64,000 bases of DNA from Methanobacteriota archaeon (GTDB taxonomy: Archaea; Thermoplasmatota; Poseidoniia; Poseidoniales; Thalassarchaeaceae). The DNA is taken from contig PBMO01000003.1 of assembly GCA_002722595.1 (NCBI GenBank), forward strand, positions 11,588-75,587, written 5' to 3'. The position numbers and the translations under genes were made by a program. The notes beneath the pieces were generated by a model. That model did not search any database. It saw nothing but the letters and a program-made list of their open reading frames with translations, and was not told where the DNA came from. Shown piece after piece: positions 26,093-43,593 of the stretch (the first letter of the stretch is position 1; the number at the start of each line of letters is the position of its first letter).

Positions 26093-28339
26093 TCAAACAA
26101 GAATCGAATCAGGATCCCGCCCACCAATCCATGCCAAAACCGGGGTTGCAACCAGTATTGGGAAACCTAGCAAGACACCAATTGCCCCCCCGAAATTGTA
26201 TGAAGATGTATCTGTGGTTGAAAGAACCGAAACCATGCCATCATCTGGATTTGTAGACGGGATAATCAGATGATATGCTGTTACATTAATTCTGAATGAT
26301 GCTTGATGTACAAGTTGAAATCCTGCATTACAATTAGTATCAGTCATCTCAACTTTCAATGTCCATGTTCCCCGGCCATGACCCCACCAAATTTCTCTTG
26401 TGATTTGATCTAACTGAACTAGAAGCGCTTCCTCTGATTCGAATCCAGTTAGATTTGCTGCTTTTGAATCAAAGGAGATATCCATACTCCCTTCCCAATC
26501 TTCTGCGATGAAACCCGATTCATTGGTTCCATCTGAAAAATTACCCCGGTCAGGCATTGAGAATGTGGTAGTCCAAACAGGCTCTCCAATTCCAAGGCAA
26601 TCATGATTTTCTAATTCAACACTAAAGAATCCAAGGAAAACTCCCCCTTCCGTAGTCGGAATATCAATTGTGGCGAGAACATTGCCACCGGTGGTGATGG
26701 TGTTGGCTGTTTCAAAGGTAATCGAGGTCTCATTCCAGCCGAGAAGGTCCCAACTCTCTTGAGTCTCTTCTGTCTCCCATTTCAACAAAACCATTGGACC
26801 CGCAAATAGCGCTGCTGAAAGCAAAATGCCTACGACACCTGTGCTGATTGCCAATCGCCGACGCGATGAATTGTCTACAGGGTCAACACCCCATGGAAGT
26901 CTAGACAACTTGTTCTGCAATTCTCGAATTTTATCAGCCAAATCAATTCGATCTTCGACTTCCTCGCCTGCTTCGAGTTTGAACTTTGAAAAATAGCGCA
27001 AACCGATTAGTGGACCAATTGCTGCAGCTGCGAACAACAATGCATAGGAATCATCCGTAACGAAAAGTAGAATCCCGCCTAAACCTACCATGATGAAAGT
27101 TGCAGAAACAGCATGGGTTGTTTGGTATAGCGACATGTGCGTGGGACCCAAACGCGGATCACTGACCTCTGCCCATACGGTGATGAATGTGTACATCATC
27201 CAGTCAGTTAGGAACAGCGTTGGCATCCAAAGAATCAGAATAGGAAGGGCTGGTGCACCTATTGCCATCAATACCGCTAGGCCAAGATAGCATACTATCG
27301 AACCAATCGCATACAAACGAAGCATCCTTGAACGCCCATAGATATCAGATAACCAAGGACCAAGGACACCAAGATACTTCGATATGATGAATACATTGGA
27401 CCAAAGTGTAATATCTGCTGCTGAGAAACCAAGAATTTCCTTCTGATAATTGATGAACCAAGTTTCAAATCCGTCTCCTAATGGTAATAAGAAACAGCAA
27501 AGGAGAACAAGCCAAGATGTTTGCGAACGCATCGCTGCAAGAATCTTTTGACTGATGGATGTGTTTTCCGGAAATTGGAGATTTACATCATCTATGGCTG
27601 ATTTCAAATCCTTTGCCACACGCATTTTCTTACCAGAATTTGGGCCCCTAAGACTTTGACCTTCTTTCATCAGAAATGTCATCGCAATACCGCTAATTGC
27701 AGCAATTAAGGCAATACATACCGCGATAATTTGTATCATGCCAAAATCAAGTTCACCATCTTTGTAGAAGGGACTCTTGGTTTCTGCAGCAACGAACCAA
27801 CCCATCAGCATAATCAGGATTGTTCCTCCTCCCCTCCACGCAAAATTGATCATAGAATTGAAGCGGCCAAGATCGGGTATACTTTCAGCCATCATACCGG
27901 CAACTGCCTGTTCTGCAAACAATCGAGGAATCATGCAAACAACAATTACACCAATGAATAACCAAGGTTGAGCTTCTAAATCGATGAATGCCAATGGAAC
28001 AAACAATATTGCATGCCCTATTGAACCGAATAACATCCAAGATCTCCTTCTGCCAAATGAAAAAGATTGCATTCTCTCCACTGGTTGTGCCCAAACAGGA
28101 CGAAGGAAAAACGGGATTTGTGCAACCATCCACATTGTGGCAACCAAATACTTGTCCATATTGTATTCGCCAATTGCTATTGTGTGAGTCCAATAGGACA
28201 TGAACCCAAAAGGAAGAATGAAACCCATGTAAAAAAACAGGCACCAGATGTATCGGAAACGGCTGTTTTCACCGACATCGATCCAACCAGACCTCAGGCT
28301 ACCCTGAGATGCCAATTCGGCCTCAAGAACGTCGGTCAT
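26093..28339 (-). CDS. AmpG/PAT-type MFS permease fused to a C-terminal extracytoplasmic domain of about 270 aa.
   Basis: About 12 TM segments are followed by one more TM and a beta-rich, sequon-containing domain. IPFFLRPVWAQPVERM...GRRRSWMLF parallels LPWTFKFLWGPVIDRF...GRRRPWILF in 40714..43323. The ATG lies at 28339, with a GTG at 28342. Confidence 0.8.
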   Translation of the reverse strand: MTDVLEAELASQGSLRSGWIDVGENSRFRYIWCLFFYMGFILPFGFMSYWTHTIAIGEYNMDKYLVATMWMVAQIPFFLRPVWAQPVERMQSFSFGRRRSWMLFGSIGHAILFVPLAFIDLEAQPWLFIGVIVVCMIPRLFAEQAVAGMMAESIPDLGRFNSMINFAWRGGGTILIMLMGWFVAAETKSPFYKDGELDFGMIQIIAVCIALIAAISGIAMTFLMKEGQSLRGPNSGKKMRVAKDLKSAIDDVNLQFPENTSISQKILAAMRSQTSWLVLLCCFLLPLGDGFETWFINYQKEILGFSAADITLWSNVFIISKYLGVLGPWLSDIYGRSRMLRLYAIGSIVCYLGLAVLMAIGAPALPILILWMPTLFLTDWMMYTFITVWAEVSDPRLGPTHMSLYQTTHAVSATFIMVGLGGILLFVTDDSYALLFAAAAIGPLIGLRYFSKFKLEAGEEVEDRIDLADKIRELQNKLSRLPWGVDPVDNSSRRRLAISTGVVGILLSAALFAGPMVLLKWETEETQESWDLLGWNETSITFETANTITTGGNVLATIDIPTTEGGVFLGFFSVELENHDCLGIGEPVWTTTFSMPDRGNFSDGTNESGFIAEDWEGSMDISFDSKAANLTGFESEEALLVQLDQITREIWWGHGRGTWTLKVEMTDTNCNAGFQLVHQASFRINVTAYHLIIPSTNPDDGMVSVLSTTDTSSYNFGGAIGVLLGFPILVATPVLAWIGGRDPDSILV

Positions 28340-28404
28340 CACGCAGCCTACGACAGCAACTCAGTCAAGAGTGTGACGGTTGAATGTGGAACAGGCTCTT
28401 GACC

Positions 28405-39086: not shown

Positions 39087-39794
39087 ATGGCGGGGCCAAA
39101 TCAAGTCAATTGGGCTGTTATCCCAGCAGCAGGACTTGGAACAAGAATGTCTGAAAACGCAGTACTGGGGTGCAAAGAACTGATAGAGATCAAAGGAAAA
39201 ACGATGCTTGAGCACACCATTGAAGAACTGGAAATCGCTGGATTTGAACAAATTGTAGTTGTTTCTTCGCCCAACAAGCCAGCCATCGATGAAGTACTCT
39301 CAGAAAGAGGAGTAGAAATTGTTCATCAGGACGAACCAAATGGGTTAGTTGATGCCGTTAATTGTGCACGAAACATTACAGGTAGGGGGCCTTGTATGAT
39401 TGCTCTTCCTGATGTCATGTTCCCAGATACAAATCCTTCCGCTAGACTGCTCGCAGACTATTCTGGTGAAACGCTACTTGCAGTAGTTCGAGTGGAAAAA
39501 CCCTGGGGTTTACAACTCAAAGATACAGGAAGGATTACCAAGATGGAAGGTCGTAAAATTCTCGAGATTTCAGACAAGCACCCTGAGAAGGATTTTCCAA
39601 TCGGAGAATTACGAATTACTGGCCGTGCTATTTGGACTGAAGCATTCTGGGAATTCAATGATGATAACGAAATTTCGACATTACGCAAGTTGGCTTCGGA
39701 GCAAAAATTATTGTATTCTCATGTAGAAACAGAATACATAGATGTAGGTAACCCTAAAGGTTACCAGTATGCACAATCTATTTTCAATCGATGA
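39087..39794 (+). CDS. Sugar-1-phosphate nucleotidyltransferase (GalU/RmlA-like NDP-sugar pyrophosphorylase).
   Basis: It has the AVIPAAGLGTRM signature, KELIEIKGKTML and a 235-aa GT-A-like fold length. Confidence 0.8.
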   Translation: MAGPNQVNWAVIPAAGLGTRMSENAVLGCKELIEIKGKTMLEHTIEELEIAGFEQIVVVSSPNKPAIDEVLSERGVEIVHQDEPNGLVDAVNCARNITGRGPCMIALPDVMFPDTNPSARLLADYSGETLLAVVRVEKPWGLQLKDTGRITKMEGRKILEISDKHPEKDFPIGELRITGRAIWTEAFWEFNDDNEISTLRKLASEQKLLYSHVETEYIDVGNPKGYQYAQSIFNR

Positions 39795-40617
39795 GGATTC
39801 GGCCTCCAACCTCTGGAACGACAAAGGCTTGTTCTGGAGCTCTTTGAACTATTTCATCAACAAAAATTTGTGGGTTGACTGTGTTGCCTGGATCCATCCC
39901 ATAGTGCATAGGGACTATCAATTTCGGATTCAAAGCCAAAGCCAAATCTACAGCCTCATCGTGGCGTAGGTTGTCATTGCCATTTATGCATGCGAAGACT
40001 AGGTCGTAGTGCTTCGAAGCATTTTGCAATGCCTCATGCCAGCCGGGATACGGTCGACTATCGCCCATGTGTAGCACGGTAGAGTCTCCAAACTTTACCA
40101 CATAACCAAGGTACCAAGCCCCATCCTCATTGACGTCGAGTTCTTCATGTGCGGCTGGAATCGCATGGATTTGGATATCTCCAATCATCTTGGAATCCGA
40201 ACCAAGCATGGAAATAATACGGCTCTGTTCAATTCCCCATCCTGTAAGCAAATCGACGGAACGATTAGGCACGACGAAACGCAGGTTAGGGAAATGTGTG
40301 GCTAGTCGAGGAATCGATTCCGGGCAGATATGATCATCATGCCAGTGGGTACAGAGTACCAAATCAGGTTCTGGATGCTCTTCGGGTTTCAGTGGGAACT
40401 CACCAAGTAACTTCCCCCATCGATCACCTGCAAACAAATCTCTCCACCATGGATCAATAAGGATAAGGGGTCCGTTCTGGAAACGTACCATCCATGATGC
40501 TTGTGTTAACCACCACGCTGCAATGGGGGACTCTATGGAAGATTCCATCTGTGCTTTCAGTTCTGCTCCTCTGCATATCGGTTGAGTACGGTGTTCGGGA
40601 ACTGCCCATTCTGCCAT
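39784..40617 (-). CDS. Metallo-beta-lactamase-fold hydrolase (UlaG-like; possible lactonase).
   Basis: It has LILIDPW and CTHWHDDH (HxHxDH), with later His/Asp ligands (AAHE, HMGDS, PMHYG). The listed ORF begins at GTG 40635. The first ATG is at 40617. Confidence 0.8.
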   Translation of the reverse strand: MAEWAVPEHRTQPICRGAELKAQMESSIESPIAAWWLTQASWMVRFQNGPLILIDPWWRDLFAGDRWGKLLGEFPLKPEEHPEPDLVLCTHWHDDHICPESIPRLATHFPNLRFVVPNRSVDLLTGWGIEQSRIISMLGSDSKMIGDIQIHAIPAAHEELDVNEDGAWYLGYVVKFGDSTVLHMGDSRPYPGWHEALQNASKHYDLVFACINGNDNLRHDEAVDLALALNPKLIVPMHYGMDPGNTVNPQIFVDEIVQRAPEQAFVVPEVGGRILID

Positions 40618-40654
40618 GACGTTGCGAACCCTCACAGGACCTTCAGGTTACCCT

Positions 40655-40689: not shown

Positions 40690-40713
40690 ATGACTACCTG
40701 AGTCGGAAAAGCG

Positions 40714-43323
40714 ATGTCTCGCAGTAGGAAGCACTCCGTGCTACTCATACTCACCCTACTGCTGACCGCGTTATTGCCAGGAGAAATCGTGCCTGTTGAG
40801 TTGCAGCAAGAAACACCACCGGCTTGGCCAGAAGGAAGCAATGCATACGATAATATGGTCTCAATGGCGGATTTTGGTTATCGGCAAATCGACTCGACTG
40901 CAAACATCAATGCTCGAAATTGGATTGCGAGTGAACTTGAGTCCATGGGTTACGAAGTTGAACGGCAACCATTCACTTCAGAAGTCTGCAACAATTGCGA
41001 AAACATCGTCGTCACCATCAATGGGACATTAGAGGATGACTGGCGAGTTGTTGGAGCACATCACGATGCTATATGTTACACCACGATACCTGTTGGATTG
41101 ACTTATCCTGGTTGCACGAATACTGGTGCTTACGATGATGGAACGGGTTCAGGTGCCCTTCTAGAATTGGCAAGAACGTTTGCGGAATGGGATGGTACAC
41201 CATTGCATACCTGGAAATTAGGTTGGTGGGATTACGAAGAATGGCAGGGTGCCAATAGCCCCGAAGGAGGTGGTAAAGGTAGTCTTCACTTTGTTGAAAA
41301 CATTCCAGACGATGTCAATGTCACGTATCTCAATCTCGATATGTTTGCACTAAATTGGCCAGTCCCCACACCCTTGGCCAGTCAACTCTCAGGATGTGAT
41401 GAGGAATTCTGGACGCTGTACATGTTTACCTCGCCCGTCGATGATTGGTCCTATTACGAAAATGAAGGACTTGATGTCACTGATGAGATGATCACAAATG
41501 CAGAATGGTTCCAAGGCCATCTCAAAGAAATCAATGCCAACCTATCCCATCCAGAAGAATGGGTAAGGGTTATTGATGATACGAAGGGTAATTCGGATCA
41601 TTACAACTTCATCATGCACAACCATACCGCGACTTGGCTCCGTGGTCAACATCAGTATATCCATGAGGAAGGAGATACATGCGAACAAACTCCGAAGCAT
41701 TCTCAGACAGATTCTGTGACCACAGTCAACACATTGGCTGGTGGAAGAGCCAATGTCGAAGCTGGGCTTCAAACTGGACTTGACGTGGTTGCAACGATGG
41801 CTTGGTGGGACTGGAACTCGACGGCCTCAGAAACTGATGGAGAGGGTGGCGAAAAAGCGGTAGAAGGAATGGGTCAAATATCGATGTTTTTCTTCCTTCC
41901 TTGGCTCATTGGCCTGCTCTGCTTAGTAGGATTTATCACAGTACGCAGAGACCAATTCCAACTTGGATTTATCATCGAAGAGGAGGCGATTGATCATAAA
42001 CCTGAAACTGTGACTTTGACGTCTGGAAACTCATTGGTTGAGAGTTATCGCTCTAGAGTAATCACATTGTGTGTATTGTACATCGCTCAAGGAATTCCGT
42101 GGGGATTCATCACAGTGACCTTTGTCACATTCCTCGCTGTCGAAGGAGTCTCAGCAGGCATGATTGCAGACCTTCTTCTGGTGGGGACCTTACCTTGGAC
42201 ATTCAAGTTCTTGTGGGGGCCAGTAATTGATAGATTCCAATATCGACCCATGGGGAGACGTCGTCCTTGGATTTTGTTTGCCGAAGCGGGAATGATACTC
42301 ACTCTATCTCTAATCCTATTCATCCCTGATCCCAGTTCAAACTTCACTGCAGTAGTTGGTGTGTTTCTAGTGTACAATATTTTCACTTCTCTGCAAGATG
42401 TCAGCACCGATGCCTTGGCTGTTGATATCCTTCGTTCTGATGAATTTGAAAAAGTCAACAGTTACATGTTTAGTTCGAAACTGGTTGGTGGTATGATTGG
42501 CGGAGCAGGCCTTGGTACAATCATTGGTTTCGTTGGCATAAAAGGCGCGATTTTACTCCAAATTCCAATACTCTTGCTGATTATGATGGCGCCTTTATTG
42601 ATGACGGAGCGACCCGGAGATATTCGATTTCCTTGGAGTAAATCAAAGCGTGAAATATGGTCTGAAGAGAAGGAAGAAGAGCGCAACTTCTTCCAAATTC
42701 TCTCAAACATTCGCACCGCATTTTCACTACGCTCAGCTCAACTTGGAATTGTATTGAGTTTGTCGAAATCACTGTCGTTCTTTTTGATTCCCATTTTGCC
42801 GATTCTATTTGTACAAGAGTTAGGTTGGAGCGAGGAAGGTTTCAACGCCACAAAGGGTGGTTTGTTGGTGCTTATTTTGATGTCAGGTTACATTGTAGGT
42901 GGGCAATTGGGCAAGATCTTCGGAGGAAAAGCCATCATCATTTACTCCACTTTAGCAATGGCGATGATTAGCATTTTTTGGGCATCCACCGAATCACTAT
43001 GGGAAAATCGAATCTTCTTGGTTTCAATTTGGTCAATCCACACATTCTGTCAGGGCATGGCTTACATCAATATCTTCTCACTAATGATGAAAATCACTTG
43101 GCCCGAAGTGGGTGGGACACAGTTTACCGCCTATATGGCGATGATGAATCTTTCAGCCGTAATTGGTTACAGCCTAACTGAACCCTTTGCAAAACGATTC
43201 GATTATTCATCAATGATTCTACTCGGTGCAGTCCTTGAATCAATCATCATCCTCTGTGTAATGTTCATCGACCCCGATGAAACACGCCGGGTTCTTGGTA
43301 CAGGGACAACTGAAAAATCTTGA
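40714..43323 (+). CDS. Fusion protein: signal peptide plus extracytoplasmic M28-family metallo-aminopeptidase domain (about 380 aa), joined to an AmpG/PAT-type MFS permease (about 12 TM).
   Basis: The peptidase half has VVGAHHDA, GAYDDGTGSGALLELART and WWDYEEWQG (M28 metal ligands). The permease half has LYIAQGIPWGF, LPWTFKFLWGPVIDRF and GRRRPWILF (AmpG family). Confidence 0.8.
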   Translation: MSRSRKHSVLLILTLLLTALLPGEIVPVELQQETPPAWPEGSNAYDNMVSMADFGYRQIDSTANINARNWIASELESMGYEVERQPFTSEVCNNCENIVVTINGTLEDDWRVVGAHHDAICYTTIPVGLTYPGCTNTGAYDDGTGSGALLELARTFAEWDGTPLHTWKLGWWDYEEWQGANSPEGGGKGSLHFVENIPDDVNVTYLNLDMFALNWPVPTPLASQLSGCDEEFWTLYMFTSPVDDWSYYENEGLDVTDEMITNAEWFQGHLKEINANLSHPEEWVRVIDDTKGNSDHYNFIMHNHTATWLRGQHQYIHEEGDTCEQTPKHSQTDSVTTVNTLAGGRANVEAGLQTGLDVVATMAWWDWNSTASETDGEGGEKAVEGMGQISMFFFLPWLIGLLCLVGFITVRRDQFQLGFIIEEEAIDHKPETVTLTSGNSLVESYRSRVITLCVLYIAQGIPWGFITVTFVTFLAVEGVSAGMIADLLLVGTLPWTFKFLWGPVIDRFQYRPMGRRRPWILFAEAGMILTLSLILFIPDPSSNFTAVVGVFLVYNIFTSLQDVSTDALAVDILRSDEFEKVNSYMFSSKLVGGMIGGAGLGTIIGFVGIKGAILLQIPILLLIMMAPLLMTERPGDIRFPWSKSKREIWSEEKEEERNFFQILSNIRTAFSLRSAQLGIVLSLSKSLSFFLIPILPILFVQELGWSEEGFNATKGGLLVLILMSGYIVGGQLGKIFGGKAIIIYSTLAMAMISIFWASTESLWENRIFLVSIWSIHTFCQGMAYINIFSLMMKITWPEVGGTQFTAYMAMMNLSAVIGYSLTEPFAKRFDYSSMILLGAVLESIIILCVMFIDPDETRRVLGTGTTEKS

Positions 43324-43593
43324 TTACAGATATTCCTCAAGATGATCAGAACCACCGACAAAAATGGGTTTTTCGCCACGTATATCGAATACAACTGGGA
43401 CTGTGCGGTGGCCGGTCATCGCTACAAATTCCATCCTCAATTCTGCGTCGTGCTGTACATTGACCTCGGTCCAAGACAATTTGTGTCCGTCAAGAAAGCG
43501 CTTGGCCTTGAAACAGTAGGGGCAGACATTTGTGCTGACGATGAAGAAATCTGCATCCGCACGGTTCAGCATTGCCATTGCTCGCTCGGCCAT
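43324..43593 (-). CDS. grx: Glutaredoxin / NrdH-like redoxin.
   Basis: It is 89 aa with a CPYC active site, TVPVVF and GGSD motifs. Confidence 0.8.
   Translation of the reverse strand: MAERAMAMLNRADADFFIVSTNVCPYCFKAKRFLDGHKLSWTEVNVQHDAELRMEFVAMTGHRTVPVVFDIRGEKPIFVGGSDHLEEYL

What the first reader, a model, noticed from the sequence alone, without database searches (positions are those of the whole stretch)
40714..43323. M28 aminopeptidase fused to an AmpG-type MFS permease: possible coupled extracellular peptide trimming and uptake
One 869-aa ORF encodes three parts:
- A signal peptide.
- A complete-looking M28 zinc-aminopeptidase domain (HHDA, GAYDDGTGSG, YEEWQG ligand motifs; PA-less).
- After a first TM at about residue 395, a 12-TM AmpG/PAT-family transporter (LPWTFKFLWGPVIDRF, GRRRPWILF).

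A hydrolase physically joined to the permease that could take up its products is an elegant arrangement for a dilute-ocean heterotroph. I do not recognise it as a described architecture. Bacterial AmpG imports muropeptides, so peptide or glycopeptide substrates are plausible.

Together with 26093..28339 it defines a small family of MFS permeases decorated with ectodomains.
Basis: partly seen in the sequence, partly recalled or inferred. Interest (0 to 1): 0.62.

Follow-up and report, generated by a model that had tools for sequence, protein, structure and literature searches.

The report
Surface aminopeptidase fused to membrane permease
Abundant ocean archaea (Marine Group II) make one conserved protein that joins an outward-facing zinc aminopeptidase to an AmpG-like membrane transporter, apparently undescribed, which may let the cell take up digestion products where they are made, though this has not been tested.

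Summary
ORF 40714..43323 (+) encodes 869 aa: a signal-like N-terminus, an M28 ectodomain, an acidic tether, one extra helix (TM0), a cytoplasmic linker and a 12-TM MFS core.

- **Assembly:** contigs from three independent metagenomes cross the junction without indels.
- **M28 domain:** all five zinc ligands and the catalytic Glu are invariant in 33 fused homologues. The fold is closest to the secreted leucyl aminopeptidases SGAP and AAP.
- **MFS half:** it is closest to AmpG but is not an AmpG orthologue. It scores far below the curated cut-offs and lacks the anhydroMurNAc-binding and C-lobe proton-site residues.
- **Distribution:** every relative found lies in Poseidoniales.
- **Modularity (new):** of 80 species-representative loci, 23 carry M28 on this permease ("MFS-A"). 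14 carry M28 on a second paralogue ("MFS-B", the orthologue of window ORF 26093..28342). 37 carry a solo M28 with its own anchor helix.
- **Other partners:** MFS-A also occurs with cupredoxin and several unknown ectodomains. More distant relatives (34-46% identity) carry S8 subtilases or glycoside hydrolases.

Best reading (about 0.5): a tethered cut-and-import device. Activity, substrate and coupling are all untested. No paper found describes it.

The parts
40714..40791 (+). N-terminal signal peptide or signal anchor (residues 1-26: MSRSRKH + hydrophobic SVLLILTLLLTALL + PGEIV)
   Evidence: Hydropathy peak at 8-26 with three K/R before it. The same pattern is seen in fused and solo homologues. 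Cleavage was not predicted here.
40792..41814 (+). Extracellular M28 di-zinc aminopeptidase domain (residues 27-367). Ligands: H116 (41059-41061), D141 (41134-41136), E176 with catalytic E175 (41236-41241), D209 (41338-41340) and H296 (41599-41601). A clade-specific 8-aa insertion, W177-E184, follows the EE pair.
   Evidence: Pfam PF04389, 1.4e-16. H116 aligns to AAP His97 and D141 to Asp117, residue by residue. All ligands are invariant in 33 fused homologues and kept in 34-36% relatives. AF2 model pLDDT 81.9, pTM 0.86. Foldseek top hits are SGAP 1qq9 (1.2e-15) and AAP 1amp (TM 0.76). dN/dS is 0.02-0.07.
41815..41886 (+). Acidic low-complexity tether (residues 368-391)
   Evidence: pLDDT below 50 in both models. 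dN/dS is 0.2-1.0, far above the flanking domains. Length and sequence vary between homologues.
41887..41943 (+). TM0, the extra 13th transmembrane helix (residues 392-410), oriented out-to-in and followed by RRDQFQLG
   Evidence: Hydropathy 2.43. Helix 391-410 in the AF2 model. The motif IS..F.PW(F/L)I..LVGF(I/V)S.RRD.(F/Y)QLG is shared with cupredoxin-, X- and Y-fused MFS-A proteins.
41944..42045 (+). Cytoplasmic linker (residues 411-444), ending in the conserved TLVESYR.RV segment before TM1
   Evidence: Low pLDDT at 420-437. The conserved end motif appears in all MFS-A proteins.
42046..43293 (+). 12-TM MFS core of the PAT/AmpG/BT1 neighbourhood ("MFS-A", residues 445-860). It carries K498, motif A (D506, R516), D562 and D566.
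   Evidence: Pfam MFS_1 1.1e-24 and Acatn. NCBIfam RhtX/FptX 3e-32 and AmpG family 9e-31, both below cut-off. PDB profile hits to AmpG 9j9z, 8zbb, 9c3f and 8zgz, best 4e-18. Foldseek AmpG 7e-11. pLDDT is 80-90. dN/dS is 0.07-0.09.
26093..28342 (-). Second decorated permease of the window ("MFS-B", 749 aa): 12-TM AmpG-like core, TM13, an acidic 200-aa C-terminal ectodomain of unknown family and a C-terminal anchor helix. Its orthologues in 14 other species carry the M28 ectodomain at the N-terminus instead.
   Evidence: NCBIfam TIGR00901 1.9e-10. Topology. 54-55% identical to the MFS half of P0060, P0092 and P0114, whose M28 half is 71-85% identical to this finding's. Shared neighbours MR_MLE, KDPG aldolase and KDG kinase.
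39784..40635 (-). Divergently transcribed metallo-beta-lactamase-fold gene, the most constant neighbour of the M28 gene in Thalassarchaeaceae-like genomes whatever its architecture
   Evidence: Upstream of 11 MFS-A-fused loci, all 14 MFS-B-fused loci and 11 solo loci. Pfam Lactamase_B_3 in L003 and L008.

Best explanation
The gene encodes a cell-surface "cut-and-import" protein of Marine Group II archaea.

Shown:
- The N-terminal signal-like sequence and a single extra helix (TM0) place a complete AAP/SGAP-type di-zinc M28 aminopeptidase on the outer face of the membrane.
- The peptidase hangs on a tether of about 24 residues, directly beside a 12-TM MFS carrier of the AmpG/PAT neighbourhood in the same chain.
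- The architecture, the topology logic, the retention of catalytic and N-lobe carrier residues, purifying selection on both halves and the recurrence of the fusion are all observed.

Inferred:
- The peptidase removes N-terminal residues from dissolved peptides.
- The products, free amino acids or shortened peptides, are released within nanometres of the carrier's outward-facing cavity.
- They are taken up by proton symport before they diffuse away.

The protein is one member of a modular system. MFS-A is a 13-helix scaffold whose N-terminal ectodomain has been exchanged repeatedly (M28, cupredoxin, at least two unknown domains). More distant relatives carry S8 subtilase. The same M28 module also sits on a second permease paralogue, or stands alone.
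For: - **Architecture and assembly:**
- **Catalytic competence:** H116, D141, E175/E176, D209 and H296 are invariant in 33 fused homologues. H116 and D141 map residue by residue to AAP His97 and Asp117. The confident ectodomain model (pTM 0.86) matches SGAP and AAP best.
- **Outside location:** one helix lies before a cytoplasmic MFS N-terminus, and basic residues follow TM0. There are six invariant Cys. Sequons N103 and N202 are each kept in 31 of 33 homologues.
- **Carrier competence:** K498, D506, R516, D562 and D566 correspond to AmpG K62, D70, R79, D125 and D129 and are invariant.
- **Selection:** dN/dS is 0.02-0.07 for M28 and 0.07-0.09 for the MFS.
- **Non-random pairing:**
  - The same M28 orthologue (71-85% identical) is fused to two permeases that share only about 28% identity over 100 residues. 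Both are AmpG-like. The counts are 23 and 14 of 80 species.
  - Relatives of MFS-A at 34-46% identity carry other extracytoplasmic hydrolases: S8 subtilase in Marine Group III/Poseidoniia, a GH domain, and a 3-keto-disaccharide hydrolase.
- **Precedents for peptidase or hydrolase plus carrier complexes:** B0AT1 with aminopeptidase N and ACE2 (PMC3408045), and Acinetobacter AmpG1 with Slt (PMC13507758).
Against: - No activity, substrate or transcript was observed. RNA runs gave nothing.
- 37 of 80 species keep the M28 solo, with its own anchor and no MFS gene within 6 kb. The peptidase therefore does not need the permease.
- The tether is disordered and evolves almost neutrally. Proximity is supported; a fixed channel is not. 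The full-length model has pTM 0.56 and says nothing reliable about docking.
- The same scaffold carries a cupredoxin with an intact type-1 copper motif. That domain is not a hydrolase.
- The substrate-defining residues of AmpG are not conserved, so the cargo cannot be read from homology.
- An 8-residue insertion directly after the EE pair breaks the canonical EE.G..GS spacing. It might alter catalysis.
Confidence: 0.5

Rival explanations
1. Glycopeptide or glycan salvage. The protein is the uptake end of the adjacent sugar island (about 23.2-40.6 kb). The M28 trims the peptide part of glycopeptides. The AmpG-like carrier imports the glycan-bearing remnant, much as AmpG imports disaccharide-peptides. 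Cytoplasmic GH38, sugar kinases and Entner-Doudoroff enzymes finish the job.
For: - In Thalassarchaeaceae-like genomes the M28 gene, whatever its form, sits in one slot after sugar kinase, two unknown genes, GHMP kinase, NTP-transferase and MBL. The counts are 11 MFS-A, 14 MFS-B and 11 solo loci.
- At least 8 MFS-B-fused genes are flanked on the other side by MR_MLE, KDPG aldolase and KDG kinase.
- In the window the unfused MFS-B gene lies at the other end of the same island.
- AmpG K62 and D125, which bind GlcNAc O3 (PMC12214514), are kept as K498 and D562.
- An earlier scan note, e1-3589819, reads the island as glycan salvage.
Against: - Twelve of the 23 MFS-A-fused genes share no neighbour with the window. 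Four of them follow the suf operon instead.
- Solo M28 in Poseidonia is also elsewhere.
- The slot may reflect plain synteny.
- The other AmpG sugar-binding residues are lost.
- The K-D pair is also a general proton-coupling element.
Confidence: 0.2
2. Independent functions. The fusion only supplies a membrane anchor and co-expression. The peptidase and the carrier work on unrelated substrates, and the fusions are products of frequent recombination in streamlined genomes.
For: - The solo form is the commonest (37 of 80) and has its own anchor.
- The tether is flexible and fast-evolving.
- MFS-A carries unrelated ectodomains, including a cupredoxin.
- The architecture switched at least 6 times on the M28 tree. 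Ectodomain labels need 11 changes on the MFS-A tree.
- Nucleotide identity is mosaic across the junction.
Against: - The partner is never a random membrane protein. In every case found it is an AmpG-like MFS, of two paralogous kinds.
- No solo M28 has an MFS neighbour that simple read-through could have joined.
- Relatives of the carrier recurrently carry other hydrolases.
- Both halves and TM0 are under strong constraint across 54-100% identity.
Confidence: 0.2
3. Metal or metallophore acquisition. The carrier is an RhtX/FptX-like importer, and the ectodomain processes or captures a peptide-like metal chelate.
For: - The best NCBIfam hit is the RhtX/FptX siderophore transporter family (3.2e-32).
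- In one Poseidoniaceae-like subclade the gene follows sufCBDSE plus FeS_assembly_P by about 10 bp on the same strand.
- A paralogue carries a copper protein.
Against: - The score is far below the family cut-off (112 against 356).
- The AmpG family scores almost the same.
- The suf adjacency holds for 4 of 23 loci only.
- No siderophore synthesis or receptor genes were seen nearby.
Confidence: 0.05
4. The ectodomain is a glutaminyl cyclase or a non-catalytic binding domain of the M28 fold, not an aminopeptidase.
For: Bacterial and animal glutaminyl cyclases rank among the top structural matches (7d1e at 7.7e-15, 6qql, 4fbe). The 8-aa insertion after EE is unusual.
Against: All five ligands of the two-zinc site are invariant. 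By established knowledge, glutaminyl cyclases keep a single zinc site and pseudo-peptidases lose ligands. SGAP and AAP score best.
Confidence: 0.04

Closest known systems
Aeromonas/Vibrio proteolyticus leucyl aminopeptidase (AAP, PDB 1amp) and Streptomyces griseus aminopeptidase (SGAP, PDB 1qq9): secreted single-domain M28 enzymes
   Same: Same fold (Foldseek 1e-15 to 3e-14, TM 0.73-0.76). Same H-D-E(E)-D-H co-catalytic zinc ligand set. No PA domain.
   Different: Only 17-19% identical. About 70 extra residues in insertions, including 8 aa directly after the EE pair. Six conserved Cys. It is membrane-tethered and covalently joined to a carrier rather than secreted.
AmpG anhydromuropeptide permease (E. 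coli and Yokenella; PDB 9c3f, 9j9z, 8zbb, 8zgz; TIGR00901; TCDB PAT family 2.A.1.25 by my own knowledge)
   Same: Best sequence and structure match of the carrier half. Shared FKFLW.P..DR and GRRR.W motifs. AmpG K62, D70, R79, D125 and D129 are kept.
   Different: - It scores 107 bits against a cut-off of 350.
- AmpG Y152, R153, D238, E326 and R365 are replaced.
- It has an extra N-terminal helix and ectodomain.
- By established knowledge the host is an archaeon without murein to recycle.
Acinetobacter baumannii AmpG1 with its periplasmic domain that binds the lytic transglycosylase Slt (PMC13507758)
   Same: An AmpG-family carrier with an extracytoplasmic domain that brings a hydrolase next to the importer, so that cleavage is coupled to uptake.
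   Different: There the hydrolase is a separate protein recruited non-covalently and the cargo is muropeptide. Here the hydrolase is a peptidase in the same polypeptide, and coupling is unproven.
Mammalian brush-border complexes of the amino acid carrier B0AT1 (SLC6A19) with aminopeptidase N and ACE2 (PMC3408045)
   Same: A membrane-anchored exopeptidase is held beside a secondary amino acid carrier. This is thought to raise the local substrate concentration.
   Different: Unrelated protein families (M1/M2 peptidases, a LeuT-fold carrier), non-covalent association, and a eukaryotic setting.
Subtilase-MFS fusions of Marine Group II/III archaea (P0247 and P0251 here; JGI label "subtilisin family serine protease/MFS family permease")
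   Same: Same design: signal sequence, protease ectodomain, one helix, then an AmpG-like MFS 41-44% identical to this one.
   Different: An endoprotease (S8) rather than an exopeptidase (M28). It is a different branch of the carrier family and is likewise uncharacterised.

Membership tests
Peptidase family M28 (co-catalytic zinc aminopeptidases) | Match to the family profile above the curated threshold | tested here: met
   PF04389: 61.2 bits against a cut-off of 21.3, covering residues 97-330 and profile positions 1-181 of 193.
Peptidase family M28 (co-catalytic zinc aminopeptidases) | Five metal ligands His, Asp (bridging), Glu, Asp, His, plus the catalytic Glu next to the ligand Glu | tested here: met
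   H116 aligns to AAP His97 and D141 to Asp117, residue by residue. E175/E176, D209 and H296 lie in the canonical motifs. All are invariant in 33 fused homologues and across solo and MFS-B forms. Caveat: an 8-aa insertion follows the EE pair.
Peptidase family M28 (co-catalytic zinc aminopeptidases) | Alpha/beta aminopeptidase fold | tested here: met
   The model has pLDDT 81.9 and pTM 0.86. SGAP, AAP and LapA are top hits, at 1e-15 to 1e-12.
Peptidase family M28 (co-catalytic zinc aminopeptidases) | Metal-dependent exopeptidase activity | not testable with these tools
   Needs an enzyme assay.
Major facilitator superfamily | Profile match above threshold and 12 helices in two six-helix lobes, with motif A between TM2 and TM3 | tested here: met
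   PF07690: 87.5 bits against a cut-off of 33.4. Twelve helices at 445-860 in the model. Motif A is GPVIDRF...GRRRPW.
AmpG muropeptide permease (TIGR00901, NF008238, NF008867) | Score above NCBI's curated cut-off | tested here: not met
   106.9 against 350, 55.7 against 756 and 62.7 against 656.
AmpG muropeptide permease (TIGR00901, NF008238, NF008867) | N-lobe K62-D125 pair, D129, and motif A residues D70 and R79 | tested here: met
   K498, D562, D566, D506 and R516. All are invariant. Residue roles are taken from PMC12214514.
AmpG muropeptide permease (TIGR00901, NF008238, NF008867) | AnhydroMurNAc contacts Y152, R153 and R365, and proton-relay residues D238 and E326 | tested here: not met
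   They align to K589, L590, A815, a Ser near 683, and H775. H775 is Arg in P0057 and P0074. The C-lobe alignment is of low confidence.
RhtX/FptX siderophore transporters (TIGR02718) | Score above the curated cut-off | tested here: not met
   112 against 356.15.
Glutaminyl cyclase (M28 fold, single zinc) | Only one zinc site retained, with second-site ligands lost (established knowledge of the family) | tested here: not met
   All five ligands of the two-metal site are invariant.
Modular ectodomain-TM0-MFS-A family of Poseidoniales (defined here) | Conserved junction IS..F.PW(F/L)I..LVGF(I/V)S.RRD.(F/Y)QLG ... TLVESYR.RV.TLC before TM1, with a variable ectodomain N-terminal of it | tested here: met
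   Present in the query and in the cupredoxin-, X-, Y-, P0240- and P0242-type proteins. Carrier halves are 65-68% identical.

The most novel reading that the evidence does not exclude
Planktonic Poseidoniia archaea run a modular "ectodomain-TM0-permease" system. A family of AmpG-like carriers carries interchangeable surface modules: M28 aminopeptidase, S8 subtilase, glycoside hydrolases, cupredoxin and unknown domains. These modules are swapped by recombination at a conserved junction. Each enzyme hands its product directly to its own carrier. This would be a general, previously unrecognised way for dilute-ocean heterotrophs to process and capture dissolved organic matter with little diffusive loss.
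Probability: 0.3. Interest if true: 0.8.

Novelty: new variant of a known kind. Interest (0 to 1): 0.64.

Why it matters
Marine Group II archaea are among the most abundant heterotrophs of the surface ocean, have no cultured representative and are thought to live largely on proteins and peptides. How a free-living cell in very dilute water avoids losing the products of its own surface enzymes is a long-standing question.

A covalent peptidase-permease would be a direct molecular answer, and it is testable with ordinary expression and transport assays. The modular pattern found here has three parts:
- one peptidase on two different carriers, or alone;
- one carrier scaffold with at least five different ectodomains;
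- sister fusions with subtilases and glycosidases.

Together these give natural controls for such tests. They also suggest that domain exchange at one junction is an evolutionary route to new uptake specificities. The fusion also matters for annotation: these genes are currently labelled only "MFS transporter" or "M28 peptidase", so peptidase and transporter inventories of MGII genomes count them wrongly.

Tried and rejected
- **Folate idea.** I considered an M28B folate hydrolase (GCPII) paired with a BT1 folate-biopterin carrier, because homologues carry PF03092 hits. I dropped it as unsupported. The ectodomain is AAP/SGAP-like, without the PA and dimerisation domains of GCPII. The query itself has no BT1 hit at E up to 0.01. 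BT1, Acatn and AmpG profiles all hit the same N-lobe motif.
- **Split-gene test.** I looked for MFS-A or MFS-B ORFs within 6 kb of every solo M28 and found none. Solo genes are not split versions.
- **Transcripts.** No RNA run holds the gene. Nothing laid from four metatranscriptomes of the same samples. This is uninformative, not negative.
- **Whole-genome searches.** Co-occurrence of the different forms within one genome could not be checked.
- **M28 domain search.** A word-based search with the M28 domain alone returned only relatives of 70% identity or more, so it did not reach other M28 subfamilies. The exhaustive search supplied two relatives at 34-36%.
- **Docking.** Docking of the ectodomain on the carrier could not be judged. 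The full-length model has pTM 0.56, and coordinates and PAE are not exposed.
- **Misassembly** was rejected on the evidence.
Full report
**1. The observation**

- A single ORF of 869 aa runs from ATG 40714 to the stop ending at 43323 on the + strand.
- Pfam places Peptidase_M28 at residues 97-330 and MFS_1 at 452-818. Both are well above their gathering scores.
- A hydropathy scan gives this layout:
  - an N-terminal hydrophobic segment (8-26) preceded by three basic residues;
  - a strongly acidic 365-residue stretch (14 K/R, 59 D/E);
  - a very hydrophobic helix at 392-410 followed by RRDQ;
  - a linker of about 35 residues;
  - the MFS helices.
- An AlphaFold2 model of the whole chain (33-sequence alignment, pLDDT 70.6, pTM 0.56) shows helix 391-410 and twelve further helices between 445 and 860, with pLDDT 80-90.
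- The junction is not an assembly artefact. Contigs assembled independently from three marine metagenomes cover 41610-42457, 41610-42469 and 41610-42056, with 0-5 substitutions and no indel or joint.

**2. The peptidase half**

- HMMER aligns H116 to His97 and D141 to Asp117 of the Aeromonas/Vibrio leucyl aminopeptidase, residue by residue.
- E175/E176 (YEEW), D209 (NLDM) and H296 (NSDH) sit in the remaining canonical motifs.
- All of these are invariant in an alignment of 33 fused homologues at 54-100% identity. They are also kept in solo forms, MFS-B-fused forms and two relatives at 34-36% identity.
- That alignment reveals a clade-specific 8-residue insertion (W177-E184) immediately after the EE pair. 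It breaks the usual EE.G..GS spacing. E184 is also invariant, so which glutamates act is not settled.
- A model of the ectodomain alone is confident (pLDDT 81.9, pTM 0.86).
  - Its best PDB matches are Streptomyces griseus aminopeptidase (1.2e-15) and AAP (TM 0.76).
  - Bacterial glutaminyl cyclases of the same fold come close behind.
  - The complete two-metal ligand set argues for an aminopeptidase, not a cyclase.
- There is no PA domain.
- Four lines of evidence fit an extracellular, functional domain under strong purifying selection:
  - six invariant cysteines;
  - sequons at N103 and N202, each kept in 31 of 33 homologues;
  - the acidic composition;
  - dN/dS of 0.02-0.07.

**3. The carrier half**

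- NCBIfam's best hits are the RhtX/FptX (3e-32) and AmpG (9e-31) subfamily models. Both score about a third of their curated cut-offs.
- Against solved structures, the AmpG entries 9j9z, 8zbb, 9c3f and 8zgz lead by sequence profile (4e-18) and by fold (7e-11). SLC33A1 and MFSD2A follow.
- I used the residue roles reported for AmpG (PMC12214514) and the HMMER alignments.
  - **Conserved and invariant:** the N-lobe pair K62-D125, D129, and motif A residues D70 and R79. They correspond to K498, D562, D566, D506 and R516.
  - **Replaced:** the anhydroMurNAc contacts Y152, R153 and R365, and the C-lobe proton residues D238 and E326. They align to K589, L590, A815, a Ser and H775.
  - The C-lobe alignment is weak.
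- The carrier is therefore a proton-coupled MFS of the AmpG/PAT/BT1 neighbourhood with a different, unknown cargo. It is not an AmpG orthologue.

**4. Distribution and modularity (the main new result)**

*Taxonomic range.*
- A scan of one genome per prokaryotic species found 113 relatives of the protein. The 80 best are all Poseidoniales, from both Poseidoniaceae and Thalassarchaeaceae, and there is one per genome.
- The window's nearest relatives are MGIIb-type MAGs, including MED-G33.

*Classification of the ORFs.*

| Form | Loci (of 80) | Note |
|---|---|---|
| M28 on this carrier (MFS-A) | 23 | one frameshifted, in a nanopore/pilon assembly |
| M28 on a different carrier (MFS-B) | 14 | three cut by a contig end |
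| Solo M28 | 37 | 412-489 aa |
| Undetermined | 6 | cut by contig ends |

*The three forms.*
- MFS-B is only about 28% identical to MFS-A over 100 residues. It is 54-55% identical to the window's other decorated permease, ORF 26093..28342. The M28 halves of the MFS-A and MFS-B proteins are 71-85% identical.
- Solo forms end in their own single anchor helix and a short basic tail. They have no MFS-A or MFS-B ORF within 6 kb, so they are not split genes.

*Architecture switching.*
- On a tree of the M28 domain, architecture is clustered but needs at least 6 changes. Well-supported branches force 3-4 of them.
- For example, two MFS-A forms are sister to two MFS-B forms (support 96), and a solo clade is nested among MFS-A forms.

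*Other ectodomains on MFS-A.*
- MFS-A also occurs with a cupredoxin that has an intact C-x-P-H-x4-M copper motif. It occurs too with at least two unannotated ectodomains, about 240 aa each.
- Those carriers are 65-68% identical to the query's. That is closer than the carriers of some M28 fusions, at 43-54%.
- On a quick MFS-A tree the ectodomain labels need 11 changes, where 5 is the minimum.
- All these proteins share a conserved TM0 and linker motif. The swap point lies just N-terminal of TM0.
- Nucleotide identity between the window and its close relatives is mosaic. Some relatives are closest in the M28 half, others in the MFS half. This fits recombination near the junction.

*Beyond Poseidoniales.*
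- An exhaustive HMMER search of 1.8 billion cluster representatives found only one 50%-identity cluster that matches both halves.
- It also found relatives of the carrier, at 34-46% identity, joined to other domains:
  - an N-terminal S8 subtilase (Marine Group III/Poseidoniia, a 43-member cluster);
  - a C-terminal MGH1-like/GH65 glycoside hydrolase with a galactose-binding domain;
  - a 3-keto-disaccharide hydrolase;
  - FG-GAP repeats.

**5. Genomic context**

- In Thalassarchaeaceae-like genomes the M28 gene, in all three architectures, occupies one slot. It is divergent from an MBL-fold gene and downstream of NTP-transferase, GHMP kinase, two unknown genes and a sugar kinase.
- MFS-B fusions are mostly followed by MR_MLE, KDPG aldolase and KDG kinase. 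These are the neighbours of the unfused MFS-B gene in the window.
- Twelve of the 23 MFS-A fusions share no neighbour with the window. Four of them directly follow the suf operon.
- Context therefore hints at a glycopeptide role in one family but is not general.

**6. Mechanism**

*Shown.* An intact-looking, outward-facing di-zinc aminopeptidase is covalently tethered beside an intact-looking proton-coupled MFS. Both halves are under purifying selection. The pairing with AmpG-like carriers recurs independently.

*Inferred.* Exopeptidase activity on dissolved peptides, and uptake of the products by the attached carrier. The benefit would be capture before diffusive loss.

*Limits.* The tether (368-391) is disordered and nearly neutral (dN/dS 0.2-1.0). 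The evidence therefore favours proximity over a rigid channel.

*Rivals.*
- A glycopeptide-specific version tied to the sugar island.
- Mere anchoring and co-expression without shared substrate. The common solo form and the cupredoxin partner support this.
- A metal or metallophore role, resting on the RhtX/FptX similarity and the suf adjacency.
- A non-peptidase M28 fold.

**7. What is known**

- MGII genome papers list extracellular M28D/E/F peptidases but do not mention a carrier fusion (PMC6864105, PMC6336850).
- Searches combining MGII, AmpG, MFS, M28 and fusion found nothing relevant.
- An MGII metatranscriptome study reports high peptidase transcription in general, without this gene (PMC9723583).
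- The closest functional precedents are non-covalent:
  - Acinetobacter AmpG1, whose periplasmic domain recruits the lytic transglycosylase Slt (PMC13507758);
  - the mammalian B0AT1-aminopeptidase N/ACE2 complexes (PMC3408045).
- Earlier notes of this scan describe sister subtilase-MFS fusions in MGII/III. I found these independently.

**8. Verdict**

This is a real, conserved and apparently undescribed architecture. It is a new variant built from two known families, and part of a wider modular system. Function is plausible but untested.

Noticed in passing
window 26093-28342 (-): The C-terminal ectodomain of the second decorated permease (residues about 521-720; acidic, between TM13 and a C-terminal anchor helix) has no Pfam or NCBIfam match. 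Orthologous carriers in other species lack it and carry M28 at the N-terminus instead.
   Followed up: partly
window 41242-41265 (residues 177-184): A clade-specific 8-residue insertion, WQG(A/S)xSPE, lies directly after the catalytic EE pair of the M28 domain. It is absent from relatives at 34-36% identity. E184 at its end is invariant, so the identity of the acting glutamates is open.
   Followed up: partly
window 40700-43300 compared with L009-L014 and L043: Nucleotide identity is mosaic. L009, L013 and L043 are closest in the M28 half (86-88%) but lower in the MFS half (76-82%). L010, L011 and L012 show the reverse. Synonymous divergence also differs about four-fold between the halves against L010 and L011. 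This suggests recombination near the domain junction.
   Followed up: partly
L002 4918-12670; also L016, L023, L024, L030: In one Poseidoniaceae-like subclade the M28-MFS-A gene follows sufC, sufB, sufD, sufS, sufE and FeS_assembly_P on the same strand, with a gap of about 10 bp. It may be co-transcribed with iron-sulfur cluster assembly.
   Followed up: partly
L030 5809-8590: The M28-MFS-A gene is split into two overlapping frames inside the M28 domain. The contig is 1.5 Mb and nanopore/pilon-polished, so this is either a sequencing error or a pseudogene.
   Followed up: no
L004/L005 8001-9935 (P0074): A cupredoxin-MFS-A protein with an intact type-1 copper motif (C-E-P-H-x4-M) lies next to a UbiE-type methyltransferase and the A/V-type ATPase operon. 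What a blue copper domain does on a carrier is unexplained.
   Followed up: no
L006 4350-6512 and L007 8001-10163 (P0070): An MFS-A protein with an unannotated 240-aa ectodomain lies between a lamin-tail-domain protein and a PhoX alkaline phosphatase gene.
   Followed up: no
P0301 (1367 aa; 117-member cluster, marine metagenomes): An AmpG-like MFS carries a C-terminal MGH1-like/GH65 glycoside hydrolase plus an F5/8 type C galactose-binding domain. P0277 carries a C-terminal 3-keto-disaccharide hydrolase. These are hydrolase-carrier fusions on the opposite end of the carrier.
   Followed up: partly
window 43321-43326: The stop codon of the M28-MFS gene abuts the stop codon of the convergent glutaredoxin gene (43324..43593, - strand), with no spacer.
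   Followed up: no
P0121 (420 aa, ENA contig of 3.5 kb): This M28 protein is 85% identical to the query. It ends just after an MFS-A-type TM0 (…LVGFISVRRDEFQLG). It is either a truncated MFS-A fusion or an assembly break.
   Followed up: no
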